64,000 nt of DNA from positions 32,001 to 96,000 of IMG/VR virus record IMGVR_UViG_3300021256_000056, one strand, 5' to 3'. Shown here piece by piece: positions 6,641-23,625 of this stretch. The translations under genes were made by a program, and so were the position numbers. The notes beneath the pieces were generated by a model, which was given only the letters and a program-made list of their open reading frames with translations, did no database searches and was not told the origin of the DNA. Position 1 is the stretch's first letter, and each line of letters opens with the position of its first letter. Source of the DNA: a virus. Its lineage: Duplodnaviria; Caudoviricetes.

Positions 6641-6763
6641 AGAAAATCATTTAAAAGACTGGATTCGAACCAGCGTTTCCCCTGCTTTCCAGAGGCGTTC
6701 TGACCCCTAAACTACATGTCCGAAGTTTTGGTGGACACAGGTAAAACTTGCTGTTGGTTTTCT
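6641..6763 (-). ncRNA. ACAGCAA-module RNA enclosing tRNA-like D and T arms
   Basis: agaaaacca-ACAGCAA ... gtagtttaggggtcagaac ... gctggttcgaatccagt ... tgattttct. Confidence 0.7.
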
Positions 6764-10101: not shown

Positions 10102-10216
10102 TCGGGGAAGAAGGAATCGAACCTCCGCTAACGGCACCCAAAGCAATTTGACGCTGCTGTTAGTTTTCAATACTGAAAACATTTAAAACGTCGTGCTACC
10201 ACTACACTATTCCCCA
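10102..10216 (-). tRNA. tRNA-Pro(UGG) with 44-nt ACAGCA-module insert at 29/30 (10145-10188)
   Basis: Removing the insert gives acggc-tttgggt-gccgt; G72/A73 Pro identity. Confidence 0.8.
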
Positions 10217-10223
10217 AAATTTG

Positions 10224-10340
10224 TGAGGAGGATGGGACTCGGACCCATGACCCACGGGTTAAAAGCCAAGGTGAGGTTGCTGTTAGTTTTCAGTACAGAA
10301 AACGTTTTATACGTTGCTCTACCAACTGAGCTACCTCCTC
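10224..10340 (-). tRNA. tRNA-Lys(UUU) with 44-nt ACAGCAA-module insert at 29/30 (10268-10311)
   Basis: Removing the insert gives acggg-cttttaa-cccgt. Confidence 0.82.
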
Positions 10341-11010: not shown

Positions 11011-11018
11011 ATATTGTG

Positions 11019-11421
11019 TGGAGATGGGCGGACTCGAACCGCCGTTTTTCAAGCTTGCAAACTGCTTTCTACGCGCTTAGTTTTCTTTATGATTCGTTGG
11101 GCACTGGTGGAAAACACACCTGAGTACTCAATATATCATTCTGGAAACGTAGCCAAACCAGACGAATGAAACTGGCCTGCCGCTCTCGATTTGATGATGC
11201 CCTCATATTGTGAATTCAACCAAGACCAAACATTCACGAGGACAATCGTCCCGACACATCCTAGGTGCCGATGGATTAGGCTTATTTGCTTAGCAAATTA
11301 AGCGGCGATTGCATAGGTGTTGTTGCCAACTAATTTTTTTGATATTTGTTTAAAGGCTAAAAATCAAAACGCCTGCGTGCTTACAATCCTCATAGATTGA
11401 AATCAAAACCAAAACATCCCC
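11019..11421 (-). ncRNA. ssrA: tmRNA, tag GNNTYAIAA
   Basis: 5' ggggatg, 3' ggcggttcgagtccgcccatctcca, internal ggcaacaacacctatgcaatcgccgcttaa. Confidence 0.93.
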
Positions 11422-11750: not shown

Positions 11751-11855
11751 AAATCGCCAGGTGAAGCTAACCTGGCCCCCGTGAACTACCAGCCAGCCCT
11801 GCACCACGGGTGTTGATATGAGTACTGGTTGCATATCAACTTACAAGCTTACTTG

Positions 11856-11930
11856 TGCTCCCGATGGGACTCGAACCCATAACCCACTGTTTAAGAGACA
11901 GTTGCGCTCAACCAATTGCGCCACGAGAGC
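11856..11930 (-). tRNA. tRNA-Lys(CUU)
   Basis: Cloverleaf, loop ctcttaa. Confidence 0.9.
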
Positions 11931-12372: not shown

Positions 12373-12505
12373 ACAAGGCAGCGTGTATGCATCACCTTCT
12401 GACCTTGTAGAACGGACTTATATACATACCGTAACATTTTCGTAGTATGTAATTTCATCTGTTTTGTGTCTCCGACGAGGCTCGAACTCGTGACCCCCAC
12501 ATTAA

Positions 12506-13341
12506 CCTACCCAATATAGTTGCCTATACCATCTTACGATGTTTGAGTTTGGACCATTTCTTATCCATGCCACTTCGTGGTTTAGGTGGTGGTGTATGGC
12601 CTCTACACATTTATGCAAAAAAGCAATTTAGCCCGACGTTTTCCCAGGGGGATGTTCGTCGAATTAGCCACCATTCACGACAAGGGTTTCCCCTCGTGTG
12701 CTCCTTTCTTAGATTCACGTAAACATGAAATGCATAACCCGCTTTTAGTTTCCCTATGAAGCGGTTTTCCACATTTTTTGCACACGTGTTTGTACGTGTG
12801 GGTGTGTGTGGTTGTTTTAACCCCCTTCATATTTTTCTTTCCAGCGTAACTATCTGTTTGTGAATGGCAATTAGGACACAAAATCACTAGATTGTCGAGT
12901 TCATTATTAAAATGGTCTCCATCTTTATGATGAACTTGCAACGTTATGCTTTTACCATGCCACTCAGAAATTCCGCATTCTGGATTTTCGCACTTATATT
13001 CTTTCAGCCCCAATGAAATTAGTTTTTTCATTAATTCCGAAGATTTTATAAGTTTGTCTTTAACAAAAAAATCCTCTTTGTCTAGACCGTTGTGATTTTT
13101 ATTTCCGATGTTCGATTTTTGTCCAGTGAAATGTGAGGTATCTAGGTCGTATTCTTTCACGTATTTGTAAAACGTTCTATAATTACCACCAACAGGTTTC
13201 CATCCCACAGCACGACAAAAATCAGCAACACTAAAAACACGTTTACATATCTCTATTGCCTCTTCTTTACCAATTACATTTTTTGTCATAATAACACTTT
13301 TATAATAAATAGTGTTTAATTGGTAAAAGTAAGAAGATTTG
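12506..13341 (-). mobile_element. group I intron (IC3-like) with HNH ORF, inserted after U34
   Basis: 5' exon ends U, intron ends G; P/Q/R/S-like aattcgacgaa, cgtcgggctaaat, gtgtagaggc, aagaaatggtcc. Confidence 0.88.
12675..13289 (-). CDS. intron-encoded HNH homing endonuclease
   Basis: LQVHHKDGDHFNNELDNLVILCPNCHSQT. Confidence 0.9.
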   Translation of the reverse strand: MTKNVIGKEEAIEICKRVFSVADFCRAVGWKPVGGNYRTFYKYVKEYDLDTSHFTGQKSNIGNKNHNGLDKEDFFVKDKLIKSSELMKKLISLGLKEYKCENPECGISEWHGKSITLQVHHKDGDHFNNELDNLVILCPNCHSQTDSYAGKKNMKGVKTTTHTHTYKHVCKKCGKPLHRETKSGLCISCLRESKKGAHEGKPLS

Positions 13342-13399
13342 AAGTGTGGTGCTCTACCAACTGAGCTACGGAGACTTTCCTTAAATTACCATAAAATTG

Positions 13400-13748: not shown

Positions 13749-14466
13749 TGGGACAGGAGGGACTCGAACCCTCACCCTCCTTAGAGGACTGGTTCCTCGT
13801 ACCACTATGGCTTTCGCCACCAAAACAACTTCGAACTTGCGGGTTGGATTTTCAAGGCTTGTACACCCCCAGGTTGTCTTGTTTGTGGTCTGGACTGTAT
13901 CTTAACCATATTGAAATCTAGCTAGTAAACATCCTTATACTTATAGTCTCGTAGTTTAATGTGGGTCACGCGACCACCCCTAGCTCATATAAGCATGTTA
14001 TTTCAACTTAGGCTCCTCCTGTATCTCGTCTCTACACACTGTCTATTATTCTATATCTGCGGTCCCTTGTTCTCAGGCTATATTCATTACTGAAGTATAG
14101 TCTTGCAGTATAGATTTTAACATTGGCTCGGCATTAGCATATTATTCCTATTGGGGTTTTACAAGTTTCGCTTATAGTTTTATTCCGATATTCACGGTGT
14201 CCCACAAAACCAATATTTGAATAACTTAGCTTTCACCGAATTAGGAAGGTTCTACATAACGGGTTTCCCCGCGTCCACAGGCTACTCTCCCGTTTGGGAT
14301 TGTTTACCTTATCTATCACGCTTCGCAGCGTCCTGTGGTATGCACTCAAGTTAAACGGGCGCCTATCCGCATACAGAGTGTCTCAGTCTGTAATCTCCAA
14401 GTATAGGTTATCAGTATAAGCCCGTTGTTCATAAGACCAGCGCGTCTACCATTCCGCCACTGTCCC
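13749..14466 (-). tRNA. tRNA-Leu(UAG) split by group I intron
   Basis: Exons 14433-14466 and 13749-13797 join to ctggt-cttagga-accag. Confidence 0.9.
13798..14432 (-). mobile_element. group I intron after U34, no ORF
   Basis: U at 5' splice site, terminal G; core segments shared with introns at 26726 and 27550. Confidence 0.88.
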
Positions 14467-14691: not shown

Positions 14692-14857
14692 ATAAATATA
14701 TTGTTTTTAAATGGCCCTGGAATCTGTATTGACCACTAAGGGGGTAATCCTCCATCTACAGAATCTGTACCATCAGGTTTATCCCATTGGTTCCCTAAGA
14801 CCCATTCTTTTTCTCGGTGCGTGGTGACACCTCAAACCGTGAATATATACCTAGTTG

Positions 14858-14930
14858 TGGAGGATACGAGACTCGGACTCGTGACCCCCTGCTTGCAAAG
14901 CAGGTGCTCTACCGACTGAGCTAATCCCCC
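14858..14930 (-). tRNA. tRNA-Ala(UGC)
   Basis: Cloverleaf, G3-U70, loop tttgcaa; T-loop GTCCGA. Confidence 0.9.
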
Positions 14931-15880: not shown

Positions 15881-15947
15881 GGGAAACATTTTTACGTATG
15901 TTCAGAAAGAAAGTCGGAATTTTAGTAAATTTTGCTGTTAGTTTCCC
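15881..15947 (-). ncRNA. stand-alone ACAGCAA module with Glu(UUC)-like anticodon stem-loop
   Basis: gggaaac-ta-ACAGCAA...ttccga-ctttctt-tctgaa...gtttccc. Confidence 0.7.
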
Positions 15948-15952
15948 TTTAG

Positions 15953-16074
15953 AGCTGATGCAAGGAATCGAACCTCGGTCTGCGGCTTGGAATGCATTTC
16001 TTGATTTTTGCTGTCCGTAACCTTGTCAGAATACCTTATTTGAAAACGCTGTGCTACCACTACACCACATCAGC
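15953..16074 (-). tRNA. tRNA-Gly(UCC) with 51-nt ACAGCAA-module insert at 29/30 (15996-16046)
   Basis: Removing the insert gives gcggc-attccaa-gccgc. Confidence 0.8.
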
Positions 16075-17232: not shown

Positions 17233-17572
17233 GTTTCTCACCTAAGACTAACGCGCTAATCTGTCATTCGCAATGCACTAGGTGTATAACTTTTTTTATA
17301 CGTGCAGTTCTAACCCCCTTCGTGACCCCTCAGTGCTACTATAGTCGCCCTATATTTGGATTACTGACGATACCCTACACCTACTCATCACGCCATTTAA
17401 CCGTGGCTCTCTCGCATTGTTCCAATCTACGAGAGGCCCCCCCACGGTGAGGCCGTTAGTCGGATTTGACTTGAGCAAGAAGTCTGAATTGAACAGCAAG
17501 TTCCGTCCTTACGTAGCGAACAAGGGACGGACGTCTCCCGAACCTGGGTATCTTGCTAAAAAATGTGTAACC

Positions 17573-17706
17573 AGAAATCAGAAATGTTTTACTCTACCTA
17601 CTGAGCTACATGGGAAGAATACCGTAACTCCCACGGAGGGACTCGAACCCTCGTCCTTAGTTTTACAGACTTACAAACAATTAATGAACTTGCTGTAAGA
17701 TTTCTT
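17573..17706 (-). ncRNA. circularly permuted tRNA(GUA)-like RNA closed by ACAGCAA module
   Basis: Order: module, ctgtaaa loop, T arm, loop-closed acceptor (cgtggga/tcccatg), D arm, module 3' strand. Confidence 0.78.
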
Positions 17707-18122: not shown

Positions 18123-18236
18123 CGGGAAGCGTTTTACGTCCAACGGACGGGGGCGGACTTGAACCGCCGAACCTCTCAAGTTCTGATTTTCAGTCGGAAT
18201 TGTTAAACCTTTGTTGAGATTGCTGTGTGCTTCCCT
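18123..18236 (-). ncRNA. ACAGCAA module enclosing Phe(GAA) anticodon arm and T arm
   Basis: gggaagc-ac-ACAGCAA...ttccga-ctgaaaa-tcagaa...ggcggttcaagtccgcc...gcttccc. Confidence 0.75.
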
Positions 18237-18240
18237 GTTG

Positions 18241-18325
18241 CAGGCGCTGGAGGATTCGAACCCCCGAGGAATTTAATCCTGCTGGTTTTGGAGACCAGTG
18301 CCTTCGACCGCTCGGCCAAGCGTCT
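18241..18325 (-). tRNA. tRNA-Trp(CCA) with long variable arm
   Basis: ctggt-ctccaaa-accag then caggattaaattcct V arm. Confidence 0.85.
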
Positions 18326-19028
18326 GTATATATTCCATTAATCCTTTTTTATCGAATGGTAGTCCGTAATGCTTAAACCATTTTCTTATAGCATTATCCG
18401 ACACTCCAAAAGACTTTCCGACTTGTAAAAAACTTCTTTTAACTAAAAAAAGATTAATTAAAGTTTCTTTTGATGGGTGATTTCTTTCCCATGCGCATTC
18501 TCGCGCTTCTATCCAATCTTCTTTGTTTGTGTGTCTTTTCTTTACTATGGTTTTAGTAGTGGATTCGTATTTATTTGAATTTTTTCCTGCATAAGTATCC
18601 GTTTGTGAATGACAATTTGGGCATAATAACATGAGATTTTCAATCCTATTATCGTCATGTATACCATTGATATGGTGGAGTTGTAATGATATCGGTTTAC
18701 CATTCCATTCGCAAATTCCACATTGTGGATTCTCACACTTATTTTCTTTTAAGCCACACTCAATTAGTCTTTTTTTTAGCCGACTTTTGTTTGTGTATAA
18801 ACTATGTTCAACTAGAATGTCATCCATGGGAATTTTTTCTCTGTAGCTTTTTGTCATTCGTTTATAAGAGAATCTTAATTCCAGCCCGAGTTCCTTTGCA
18901 AGCGCCCTTACCTCTTTATAATCTTCCCCGCCAACGTTTTCTATTCCGAGTCTATGACAAAGGTCCAACATATTAACACATTTGTCGTAATTTTCAATTA
19001 ACCTGTCTATCGCGTATTCTCGATTCAT
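18273..19028 (-). CDS. free-standing HNH endonuclease
   Basis: LQLHHINGIHDDNRIENLMLLCPNCHSQT; C-terminal HTH-like segment; reads into tRNA-Trp. Confidence 0.9.
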   Translation of the reverse strand: MNREYAIDRLIENYDKCVNMLDLCHRLGIENVGGEDYKEVRALAKELGLELRFSYKRMTKSYREKIPMDDILVEHSLYTNKSRLKKRLIECGLKENKCENPQCGICEWNGKPISLQLHHINGIHDDNRIENLMLLCPNCHSQTDTYAGKNSNKYESTTKTIVKKRHTNKEDWIEARECAWERNHPSKETLINLFLVKRSFLQVGKSFGVSDNAIRKWFKHYGLPFDKKGLMEYIQTLGRAVEGTGLQNQQD

Positions 19029-19216
19029 AATATTCTTTTTATTATAAATAGTATGAAAAGAGAAAAATCGAACCTTTTTGGAAATTTTTATTTAGTTCGA
19101 ATATATAATGAAAAATGAATTTTCCTCTAAGGGGAGTAGTCTAACTCCCCAGTGTGTTTTATGACCTTTTCAGCAAACCAATGTAAAAACCCAATAACTA
19201 TGGTTGTAAAAATTTC

Positions 19217-19281
19217 GGAAATCTGTTTTTCAGAATATTAGATTAAAAGTCTAGTCCTTGATAAATTGCTGTAAGATTTCC
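19217..19281 (-). ncRNA. stand-alone ACAGCAA module with Lys(UUU) anticodon stem-loop
   Basis: ggaaatct-t-ACAGCAA...taga-cttttaa-tcta...agatttcc. Confidence 0.78.
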
Positions 19282-19283
19282 TC

Positions 19284-19374
19284 TGGCGGAGAGGCTGGGA
19301 TTCGAACCCAGGGGACGCTCAACACGCCCAACGGTTTTCAAGACCGCCGCTATCGACCACTCAGCCACCTCTCC
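19284..19374 (-). tRNA. tRNA-Ser(UGA)
   Basis: Cloverleaf, loop cttgaaa, encoded CCA. Confidence 0.93.
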
Positions 19375-19857: not shown

Positions 19858-19872
19858 TTATATTTCAATTTG

Positions 19873-19956
19873 TGGCCCCGACGGGACTCGAACCCGTAAC
19901 CCTCGGTTTAAAAGACCGATGCGCTCGCTTTCGCTATCCATTTGCGCCACGAGGCC
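19873..19956 (-). tRNA. tRNA-Lys(UUU) with hairpin in D loop
   Basis: tcggt-cttttaa-accga; D loop contains gc-gaaa-gc. Confidence 0.8.
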
Positions 19957-21395: not shown

Positions 21396-21462
21396 GGAAA
21401 ACTTTTTGTTAAAATTCGAAGTTTGGAATCGGATTTGGTCTAATATTTGCTGTCGGTTTTCC
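21396..21462 (-). ncRNA. stand-alone ACAGCAA module with Trp/Gly-like loop
   Basis: ggaaaac-cg-ACAGCAA...cga-ttccaaa-cttcg...gttttcc. Confidence 0.65.
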
Positions 21463-22137: not shown

Positions 22138-22154
22138 GTTTTTCGTAAATTTTG

Positions 22155-22226
22155 TGCTCCATACAGGAATCGAACCCGTCTAAGAACGTTTTAGGGACGC
22201 CCGCTCGGCCACTGAGCCAATGGAGC
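22155..22226 (-). tRNA. tRNA with CUA anticodon (amber suppressor candidate)
   Basis: gctccat/atggagc acceptor; ggcgt-ccCTAaa-acgtt; C33. Confidence 0.65.
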
Positions 22227-22234
22227 AGAAAGAC

Positions 22235-22295
22235 AGGAAACATTAAAATCAACATTATCAGTGTTTATTTGACGAAAGGTTGCTGTGTGTTTCCT
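22235..22295 (-). ncRNA. stand-alone ACAGCAA module with Ile(GAU) anticodon stem-loop
   Basis: aggaaaca-c-ACAGCAA...aaca-ctgataa-tgtt...tgtttcct. Confidence 0.78.
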
Positions 22296-23161: not shown

Positions 23162-23464
23162 AGAACACTACGGTAGGATTACTGATTACCTACAAATACT
23201 CTACAAGCGCGTTATTCAGTCACACCCAAGAAGGTTAGCTACGCCTACTTTTAAAAGGGTGAGGGGAATGCTTACCCCCAAACGGATACAGCCATCAGTC
23301 ACTGTAACTACGATTTGTCCGTTTCTTACGTCACTCTCGGTTGGCCAACCGAGGCTACTTCAACCTTACGCTTCGTGTTGCCCTCTAACCGCCTCCTGAA
23401 CTTTTCAGTCCAGGCTAACGTACCTTATGGGCAGGCTACCCATTGTTCGGTCACAAAGTGTTCT
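23162..23464 (-). ncRNA. ~300-nt structured ncRNA candidate
   Basis: Closing stem gaacact/agtgttc, many internal hairpins, no ORF. Confidence 0.55.
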
Positions 23465-23567: not shown

Positions 23568-23625
23568 GGAAAACTTTTTTGTGACGCAGTATTATCAGTA
23601 CTTCCAAAATTGCTGTAAGTTTTCC
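23568..23625 (-). ncRNA. stand-alone ACAGCAA module with Ile(GAU) anticodon stem-loop
   Basis: ggaaaactt-ACAGCAA...agta-ctgataa-tact...aagttttcc. Confidence 0.78.

What the first reader, a model, noticed from the sequence alone, without database searches (positions are those of the whole stretch)
19217..19281. Minimal 65-nt RNA displaying only a Lys(UUU) anticodon stem-loop
Seen: taga-CUUUUAA-tcta inside the ACAGCAA module. Lys(UUU) appears four times in the window: intron-split (12467), module-inserted (10224), D-loop-altered (19873) and this bare stem-loop. Established: tRNA-Lys(UUU) is the target of PrrC and PARIS. Inference: a focus of counter-defence.
Basis: partly seen in the sequence, partly recalled or inferred. 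Interest (0 to 1): 0.75.

Follow-up and report, generated by a model that had tools for sequence, protein, structure and literature searches.

The report
Phage handle RNA showing lysine anticodon arm
This 65-base stretch after a tRNA gene of a giant gut-type phage is a real small-RNA gene: a conserved "handle" (a clamp helix plus ACAGCAA) carrying a copy of the lysine-tRNA anticodon arm, and it probably belongs to an undescribed Y-RNA-like particle built around a Ro60-shaped phage protein.

Summary
On the minus strand, 19281-19217 folds as an 8-bp clamp helix, one U, ACAGCAA, then a 4-bp stem with the loop CUUUUAA. It starts 2 nt after tRNA-Ser(UGA).

It is one copy of an RNA family: about 11 copies in this window and 55 distinct copies in about 25 large phage records.
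- The clamp helix covaries strongly.
- An anticodon-like hairpin occurs in 28 of 54 members against 3.2 expected by chance, and its stem covaries.
- The lysine loop is the commonest (10 of 26).
- Close look-alikes in two other phages keep this loop over a compensated stem.

This scan has noted the family before on other DNA, with a lead to a Ro60-like partner protein. I tested that lead here.
- A DUF2828/DUF7788 protein is present in 8 of 8 complete handle-bearing phage records and in 1 of 16 control records.
- It lies 2-4 kb from handle clusters in two divergent phages.
- In two phages its gene carries a weakly scoring mini-handle in its own leader.
- Its model matches Ro60 structures best.
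- It is not in the held 53% of this genome.

Best reading: a Y-RNA-like partner RNA displaying a tRNA-Lys anticodon arm. The link to PrrC or PARIS remains untested inference.

The parts
19274..19281 (-). Clamp helix P1, 5' strand (8 nt, starts GG); a conserved A lies just before it at 19282
   Evidence: Perfect 8-bp complement of 19217-19224. The helix covaries across 55 homologues.
19266..19273 (-). Spacer U plus the invariant single-stranded motif ACAGCAA (19266-19272)
   Evidence: Invariant in alignment A1. Present in 54 of 55 distinct model matches.
19254..19265 (-). 5' linker; 19256-19258 (AGG) form a small 3-bp helix with 19232-19234
   Evidence: On the MAFFT alignment A3 this 3-bp helix is 80.7% paired, and its third pair covaries (CG 6, GU 5, UA 4, AU 1).
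19239..19253 (-). Anticodon-arm mimic: 4-bp stem (19250-19253 with 19239-19242) and 7-nt loop CUUUUAA (19243-19249), with UUU in the anticodon position
   Evidence: RNAalifold predicts this stem as the consensus, and all 5 pairs show compensatory changes. The look-alike in L158 keeps the loop while the second stem pair changes from A-U to U-A.
19225..19238 (-). 3' linker, including the 3' strand of the small helix (19232-19234)
19217..19224 (-). Clamp helix P1, 3' strand; a conserved unpaired G follows at 19216
19284..19374 (-). tRNA-Ser(UGA) with encoded CCA, ending 2 nt before the handle RNA
   Evidence: ARAGORN and Rfam.
15881..15947 (-). Sister handle RNA (71.1 bits)
21396..21462 (-). Sister handle RNA
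22236..22294 (-). Sister handle RNA with an Ile-type loop CUGAUAA, about 10 nt upstream of the tRNA(CUA)
23568..23625 (-). Sister handle RNA with the same Ile-type loop on a different stem
18124..18235 (-). Larger sister copy: the handle encloses an anticodon-like hairpin (Phe-type loop) and a T arm
17561..17706 (-). Sister copy whose handle closes a circularly permuted tRNA-like body (T arm, closed acceptor, D arm)
   Evidence: Rfam YrlA scores 31.4 bits (cut-off 69) over the tRNA-like part.
10224..10340 (-). tRNA-Lys(UUU) carrying the handle as a local hairpin inside its anticodon stem
   Evidence: Rfam tRNA 47.7 bits with an insert; sequence read.

Best explanation
The element is a gene for a roughly 65-nt structured RNA of the 'ACAGCAA-handle' family. 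It is transcribed with the minus-strand tRNA array and cut out next to tRNA-Ser. It folds into a rod. At the base are the clamp helix and the single-stranded ACAGCAA (the handle); at the tip is a copy of the tRNA-Lys(UUU) anticodon arm. The handle is most likely the docking site for a phage-encoded ring protein (DUF2828 + DUF7788, with a vWA MIDAS motif) that is predicted to fold like Ro60. The RNA would then be a Y-RNA-like partner. The displayed anticodon arm would be the business end: a bait or adaptor that brings the particle to factors recognising the tRNA-Lys anticodon loop, such as anticodon nucleases, modification enzymes or LysRS. What is shown: the family, its conserved structure, the conserved anticodon-like hairpin, and the co-occurrence and local linkage with the Ro60-like gene. 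What is inferred: RNA-protein binding, RNA processing and stability, and any decoy or counter-defence role.
For: Family and structure:
- Covariance model R1 finds 61 matches (55 distinct) in 33 sources.
- The clamp helix is 98.9% paired, with 53 double-change cells against 11.2 in shuffles.
- An anticodon-like hairpin occurs in 28 of 54 members against 3.2 expected.
- The hairpin stem and a flanking 3-bp helix covary on an alignment that was not fitted to them.
- CUUUUAA is the commonest loop. Look-alikes L158:2713-2783 and L156:8237-8304 keep it, and L158 has a compensated stem pair.

Partner protein:
- A DUF2828/DUF7788 ORF is present in 8 of 8 handle-bearing records that are at least 96% complete, and in 1 of 16 control records.
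- In the divergent phages G014 and G016, handle clusters lie 2-4 kb downstream of that gene on the same strand. The G014 cluster includes the close look-alike of this element.
- A mini-handle sits directly before the start codon of the gene in G005 and G023.
- The 12 best Foldseek PDB matches of the protein model are all Ro60/TROVE proteins, over about 500 aligned columns.

Kinship of this genome:
- G000 belongs to the same phage group (44-52% identity in a 795-aa protein).
- A sister copy in this window has YrlA-like topology.
Against: - No Ro60-like, TROVE or RtcB gene is in the held 195 kb of this genome (53% complete).
- In the megaphages the gene and the RNAs lie 35-100 kb apart, and these phages are related, so the 8 of 8 co-occurrence is not a set of independent events.
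- One complete control phage (G038) has a divergent copy of the protein but no model match.
- The protein model is only moderately confident (pLDDT 69.7), and TM-scores to Ro60 are low (0.26-0.41).
- The two mini-handle matches are weak (E 0.017 and 0.03).
- About half of the members lack a clean anticodon-like hairpin, and two look-alikes have other anticodons, so lysine identity is not fixed.
Confidence: 0.55

Rival explanations
1. A free-standing decoy. The RNA acts alone, without a Ro60-like partner, as a competitive substrate or inhibitor for host anticodon nucleases that cut tRNA-Lys(UUU), such as PrrC, RloC or PARIS AriB. The handle serves only for folding and nuclease resistance.
For: - The loop is identical to the tRNA-Lys anticodon loop, and lysine is the commonest loop in the family.
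- All other UUU-loop tRNAs in the window are structurally altered.
- From established knowledge, tRNA-Lys(UUU) is a frequent target of anticodon nucleases.
Against: - It does not explain why an invariant ACAGCAA next to a clamp helix is kept in copies that carry no anticodon arm, inside whole tRNAs, and in the leader of a protein gene.
- Many other anticodons are displayed.
- The stems are 4-5 bp, A/U-rich and unlike those of tRNA-Lys.
- A decoy needs high abundance, which is unknown here.
- No nuclease was examined.
Confidence: 0.12
2. A processing or punctuation element of the tRNA operon. The clamp helix (7-8 bp, starting with G, followed by an unpaired G) mimics an acceptor stem, or simply forms a stable spacer that guides RNase P, Z or E cuts between tRNAs. 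The RNA has no role after it is cut out.
For: - It starts 2 nt after tRNA-Ser.
- 7 of 55 members start within 5 nt of an ARAGORN-called tRNA end, and 23 of 55 have a tRNA starting within 20 nt downstream.
- The clamp has the length of an acceptor stem.
Against: - A spacer does not need an invariant 7-nt single strand, nor a covarying hairpin with a canonical 7-nt anticodon-type loop.
- In G014 the cluster lies where only one tRNA is called in 14.5 kb.
- Handles also occur inside tRNA anticodon stems and in an mRNA leader.
Confidence: 0.12
3. A minimal, armless tRNA, or a decayed tRNA-Lys gene. The clamp would be the acceptor stem, the hairpin the anticodon arm, and the D and T arms would be replaced by linkers.
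For: - It has a 7-8-bp terminal helix and a canonical anticodon loop.
- Sister copies keep T arms or whole tRNA-like bodies.
Against: - It has no encoded CCA and no A73-type discriminator; a conserved G follows the helix instead.
- ARAGORN and Rfam tRNA find nothing here.
- ACAGCAA is invariant across copies with unrelated cargo, which decay would not preserve.
- The same handle sits inside otherwise intact tRNAs.
Confidence: 0.05
4. A small self-cleaving ribozyme that trims the 3' end of the upstream tRNA, like the HDV-like theta ribozymes of gut phages.
For: It has the same genomic setting as theta ribozymes, directly 3' of tRNAs in large phages (PMC10879173). At this copy a UUGCUG about 45 nt downstream could pair with the motif.
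Against: - The clamp pairs the two ends of the element, which is not the HDV P1/P2 order.
- The candidate P2 partner occurs within 100 nt downstream in only 2 of 55 members.
- No ribozyme family appears even at E up to 10.
- Several copies end at terminator-like hairpins right after the clamp.
Confidence: 0.03

Closest known systems
YrlA-type bacterial and mycobacteriophage Y RNAs with Ro60/Rsr (Rfam RF02553; Chen et al. 2014, PMC4201824)
   Same: Both are small non-coding RNAs whose 5' and 3' ends pair into a stem that (in Y RNAs) carries the protein-binding site, while the rest mimics tRNA. The likely partner is a ring plus vWA protein with a Ro60-like predicted fold. A sister copy in this window has the YrlA order of T arm, closed acceptor and D arm. 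Phage-encoded Ro60 is known (Thermus phage phiLo, PMC12135203).
   Different: The element is 65 nt against 80-130 nt. The handle sequence (clamp plus ACAGCAA) is unlike the Ro60-binding helix. The cargo here is only an anticodon arm with a canonical 7-nt loop, the very part that YrlA lacks. The protein matches DUF2828/DUF7788 and not Pfam TROVE. RF02553 does not match this element.
Class I RNAs of dictyostelid social amoebae (Rfam RF01414; Kjellin et al. 2021, PMC7919456)
   Same: Both have a short stem joining the 5' and 3' ends that starts with G, a conserved single-stranded motif ending in ACAGCAA directly after the 5' strand, a length of about 60 nt, and a variable remainder. This element is the best match in its genome to RF01414 (23.3 bits, E 0.005 per genome).
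   Different: The score is below the cut-off of 41.5 bits. The other copies in the genome do not score. The near-invariant U at motif position 3 of Class I RNAs is variable in the phage family. The hosts and promoters are different. No anticodon-like hairpin is reported for Class I RNAs. The likeness may be convergent or chance.
HDV-like theta ribozymes next to phage tRNAs (Kienbeck et al. 2024, PMC10879173)
   Same: Both are small structured RNAs directly 3' of tRNA genes in large gut-type phages that also carry suppressor tRNAs.
   Different: No nested double-pseudoknot can be drawn, and the P2 partner is not conserved. No cleavage is known.
Anticodon-arm mimics in mRNA leaders, such as the E. 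coli thrS operator bound by ThrRS (from my own knowledge)
   Same: In both, an anticodon stem-loop copied outside a tRNA serves as a protein recognition site.
   Different: That mimic is part of an mRNA and is bound by a synthetase. Here it sits on a separate small RNA with a conserved handle.

Membership tests
ACAGCAA-handle RNA family (undescribed; defined here by model R1) | A 6-9-bp clamp helix joining the ends, supported by covariation | tested here: met
   An 8 bp perfect helix at the element. Across the family it is 98.9% paired with 53 double-change cells.
ACAGCAA-handle RNA family (undescribed; defined here by model R1) | 1-3 nt and then the invariant ACAGCAA directly after the 5' strand; A before the helix and G after it | tested here: met
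   The element scores 71.2 bits with R1, but it is one of the seven training sequences.
ACAGCAA-handle RNA family (undescribed; defined here by model R1) | The same genome encodes the DUF2828/DUF7788 Ro60-like protein | tested here: inconclusive
   Absent from the held 53% of G000. Present in 8 of 8 complete related records.
YrlA-type Y RNA (RF02553) | Reaches the Rfam gathering score (69 bits) | tested here: not met
   No match at the element. The sister copy at 17561-17677 scores 31.4 bits.
YrlA-type Y RNA (RF02553) | A tRNA-like domain with T arm, D arm and closed acceptor | tested here: not met
   The element has only an anticodon-like hairpin.
YrlA-type Y RNA (RF02553) | Bound by Ro60/Rsr | not testable with these tools
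   This needs immunoprecipitation or a gel-shift assay.
Dictyostelid Class I RNA (RF01414) | Reaches the Rfam gathering score (41.5 bits) | tested here: not met
   23.3 bits.
Dictyostelid Class I RNA (RF01414) | An 11-nt motif with near-invariant U3, C6, C9, A10 and A11 next to a stem that starts with G (PMC7919456) | tested here: inconclusive
   This copy matches 10 of the 11 positions. Across the phage family, positions 3-4 vary.
tRNA | A cloverleaf recognised by ARAGORN or Rfam RF00005 | tested here: not met
   No call at 19217-19281.
HDV-like theta ribozyme | A nested double pseudoknot (P1, P1.1, P2, P3, P4) with a catalytic C in J4/2 | tested here: not met
   Threading by hand fails. The P2 partner is present in only 2 of 55 members. 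No HDV-type Rfam match at E up to 10. The authors' RNArobo descriptor was not run.
Ro60/TROVE protein (for the putative partner, in other records) | A HEAT-repeat ring plus a vWA domain with a MIDAS motif | tested here: inconclusive
   The 12 best Foldseek hits are all Ro60/TROVE (probability 1.0, TM 0.26-0.41). A DxSxS motif is invariant. Pfam TROVE does not match in G000 or G001, the G005 protein scans only as DUF2828/DUF7788, and the PDB sequence search is empty.

The most novel reading that the evidence does not exclude
The clamp-plus-ACAGCAA handle may be the same RNA-protein recognition module as in the Class I RNAs of dictyostelid amoebae. Those long-unexplained RNAs would then be Y-RNA-like partners of a DUF2828/Ro60-like protein. 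The phage versions would use the module to present tRNA anticodon arms in the conflict over tRNAs.
Probability: 0.07. Interest if true: 0.9.

Novelty: new variant of a known kind. Interest (0 to 1): 0.7.

Why it matters
If the reading holds, large phages carry a second, unrecognised branch of the Ro60/Y-RNA system. Its RNAs are modular: one fixed handle and exchangeable tRNA parts, most often the anticodon arm of tRNA-Lys(UUU), which is the tRNA most often attacked by bacterial immune nucleases. That would give a testable mechanism for how phages sense, shield or repair tRNAs. It would give a first function for the uncharacterised DUF2828 proteins. It would also give a simple, designable RNA scaffold for presenting anticodon arms. 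I found no paper or Rfam family that describes it.

Tried and rejected
- Megablast of 6 kb of the window against deposited phages: no match.
- Relatives through the neighbouring SprT-like protein: none.
- A first 14-base pattern scan gave mostly chance hits; only 2 of 118 were real. One of the chance hits, L072, lies in what looks like coding sequence.
- Pfam TROVE and RtcB in G000 and G001: none.
- PDB search by sequence with the protein profile: nothing useful.
- A literature search for the motif returned only primers. DUF2828 has no functional literature.
- HDV-like threading was rejected.
- A box C/D guide was rejected: there is a CUGA but no box C.
- An archaeal-type bulge-helix-bulge intron was considered for the tRNA inserts and dropped. 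A phage tmRNA points to a bacterial host, and the same handle occurs free-standing.
- The neighbouring ORF 18273-19028 is an HNH endonuclease and gives no clue.
- No protein-RNA complex prediction was possible with the tools.

Full report
WHAT IS THERE. The window is part of a 195-kb viral record, estimated 53% complete. Its minus strand carries a very large tRNA array with a tmRNA. Read on that strand, 19281-19217 is a 65-nt unit. An 8-nt stretch at the 5' end pairs perfectly with the last 8 nt. It is followed by one U and ACAGCAA, a 12-nt linker, a 4-bp stem with the loop CUUUUAA, and a 14-nt linker. The unit begins 2 nt after the encoded CCA of tRNA-Ser(UGA). No tRNA finder calls it.

MORE THAN CHANCE. 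The fold of the single sequence is not unusually stable (z -1.07); the evidence is comparative.
- The same layout (clamp helix, 1-3 nt, ACAGCAA) recurs about 11 times in the window's array. Five copies are free-standing. One encloses an anticodon-like hairpin plus a T arm. Two close a circularly permuted tRNA-like body. Three are local hairpins inside the anticodon stems of otherwise normal tRNAs.
- A gapped pattern scan of viral contigs returned 45 loci, of which about 30 were judged true members by eye. Nearly all come from contigs of 100-412 kb.
- A covariance model built on the clamp alone found 61 matches, 55 of them distinct.
- In these, the clamp is 98.9% paired, with 53 double-change cells against 11.2 in shuffles, and pairing collapses when the partner strand is slid.

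THE ANTICODON ARM.
- I scored a strict definition: at least 4 uninterrupted pairs closing a 7-nt loop with pyrimidine-U at the start and purine-N at the end. This occurs in 28 of 54 members against 3.2 expected from shuffled interiors. Two of the 28 are T loops.
- On a plain MAFFT alignment of 20 members, RNAalifold predicts only this stem. All five pairs show compensatory changes. Together with a flanking 3-bp helix, 87% of cells pair, with 40 double-change cells against 12 in shuffles.
- The lysine loop is the commonest, at 10 of 26. Tyr, His, Asn, Asp, Ile, Phe, Cys, Ser and a UUA loop also occur as clean hairpins; imperfect Glu- and Trp-type hairpins also occur in this window.
- The nearest look-alikes of this copy are L158:2713-2783 (a 412-kb phage) and L156:8237-8304. 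Both keep the same linkers and loop, and L158 has the second stem pair turned from A-U to U-A. Two further look-alikes carry UAU and UGA in the anticodon position.
- The display is therefore selected, but lysine identity is not absolute.

THE FOUR LYSINE LOOPS. All four are confirmed. They are a tRNA-Lys(UUU) split after U34 by an 836-nt intron with an HNH ORF (12467-13375; Rfam group I intron 34.4 bits, below cut-off), a tRNA-Lys(UUU) with the handle inside its anticodon stem (10224-10340), a tRNA with an enlarged D loop (19872-19956; sequence), and this element. A normal tRNA-Lys(CUU) lies at 11855-11930.

THE LIKELY PARTNER. Earlier notes of this scan, made on many other genomes, name a DUF2828/vWA 'Ro60-like' protein as the companion of this handle. 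I treated that as a lead and tested it.
- The held parts of G000 and of the related G001 lack the protein.
- Every handle-bearing record that is at least 96% complete has one ORF of roughly 550-580 aa with DUF2828 and DUF7788 and an invariant DxSxS motif. That is 8 of 8 records.
- Among 16 control records whose pattern hits were chance, only one (G038) has a divergent copy.
- G000 belongs to this phage group (44-52% identity in a 795-aa protein).
- These megaphages are kin and keep gene and RNAs 35-100 kb apart, so the count is weak on its own.
- Two local links are more telling. In the divergent phages G014 and G016 (32-35% protein identity), clusters of 4-5 handle RNAs lie 2-4 kb downstream of the gene on the same strand. 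In G014 the region has a single called tRNA and includes the look-alike of this element.
- In G005 and G023 a miniature handle sits immediately before the gene's start codon, which suggests autoregulation. The scores are weak (E 0.017 and 0.03).
- An AlphaFold model (pLDDT 69.7) has Ro60/TROVE proteins as its 12 best PDB matches over about 500 columns. These include Deinococcus Rsr and the Ro60 of Thermus phage phiLo. The TM-scores are low, 0.26-0.41.

MECHANISM. My best reading (0.55) is a Y-RNA-like particle. The terminal stem with ACAGCAA docks the ring protein, as the terminal stem of Y RNAs docks Ro60 (PMC4201824). The tip presents a tRNA-Lys anticodon arm to whatever reads that loop. A role as bait, shield or sensor against anticodon nucleases is plausible from established knowledge of PrrC, RloC and PARIS. 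It also fits the Salmonella rsr-yrlBA-rtcBA operon that responds to damaged tRNAs (title and abstract of PMC7790460, listed). It is pure inference here; I put it at roughly 0.2.

RIVALS.
- A protein-free decoy does not explain the invariant handle in copies without an anticodon arm.
- A processing spacer does not need a canonical loop.
- An armless tRNA lacks CCA and discriminator features.
- An HDV-like ribozyme fails on topology, and its P2 partner is present in only 2 of 55 members.

COMPARISON AND NOVELTY. The closest known systems are YrlA-type Y RNAs, which share the topology but not the sequence, and which lack an anticodon arm. In outline, the dictyostelid Class I RNAs are also close: this copy scores 23.3 bits against a 41.5-bit cut-off. 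I found no Rfam family or paper that describes the handle. The scan has seen the family repeatedly on other DNA. This window adds a minimal lysine-only member, its look-alikes with a compensated stem, and the finding that lysine is the preferred cargo in this sample.

LIMITS. There are no expression data and no binding data. The partner gene has not been seen in this record. The related phages are not independent samples.

Noticed in passing
window 22154-22226 (-) and 22236-22294 (-): A tRNA with anticodon CUA (ARAGORN 'Pyl'; amber-suppressor-like) lies about 10 nt downstream of a handle RNA with an Ile-type loop. I did not check whether the phage reads TAG as sense.
   Followed up: no
window 12467-13375 (-): A tRNA-Lys(UUU) is interrupted after U34 by an 836-nt intron that encodes an HNH protein. 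Rfam group I intron scores only 34.4 bits (cut-off 50).
   Followed up: partly
window 6641-6763 (-): A handle encloses a permuted tRNA-like body. The acceptor 3' strand with ACCA is joined by a 7-nt linker to the 5' strand, so the handle interrupts between the T arm and the acceptor. This is a different site from the anticodon-stem inserts.
   Followed up: partly
window 10102-10216, 10224-10340, 15953-16074 (-); L138 about 14320-14455 and 14770-14915 (-): tRNA-Pro(UGG), tRNA-Lys(UUU) and tRNA-Gly(UCC) carry the handle as a hairpin inside the anticodon stem. A second, diverged phage (G001) has handle inserts in its Pro(UGG)- and Gly(UCC)-type tRNAs too, so the arrangement is conserved. Normal Pro(UGG) and Gly(UCC) genes also exist in the window.
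   Followed up: partly
L183:1394-1437 (+) and L193:3142-3194 (-): A miniature handle (6-7-bp clamp, UA, ACAGCAA, no anticodon arm) ends 4 nt before the ATG of the Ro60-like gene in two phages. This could be autoregulation of the protein by its own RNA site.
   Followed up: partly
L186-L190, L192, upstream of the Ro60-like genes: A conserved upstream motif of the TAnnTTTG type, as in Bacteroidota promoters, together with the phage tmRNA tag GNNTYAIAA (window 11018-11421), suggests a Bacteroidota host. This rests on my own knowledge and was not tested.
   Followed up: no
window 18273-19028 (-): A free-standing HNH endonuclease ORF (251 aa) sits inside the tRNA array, just downstream of the element.
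   Followed up: partly
L143:2152-2204 (-) and L166:6377-6495 (-): Two handle RNAs in other phages display a loop with UUA in the anticodon position, which would read the UAA stop codon.
   Followed up: no
window 23163-23352 (-): A weak sub-threshold match to the manA RNA motif (19.9 bits, E 0.22). Probably chance.
   Followed up: no
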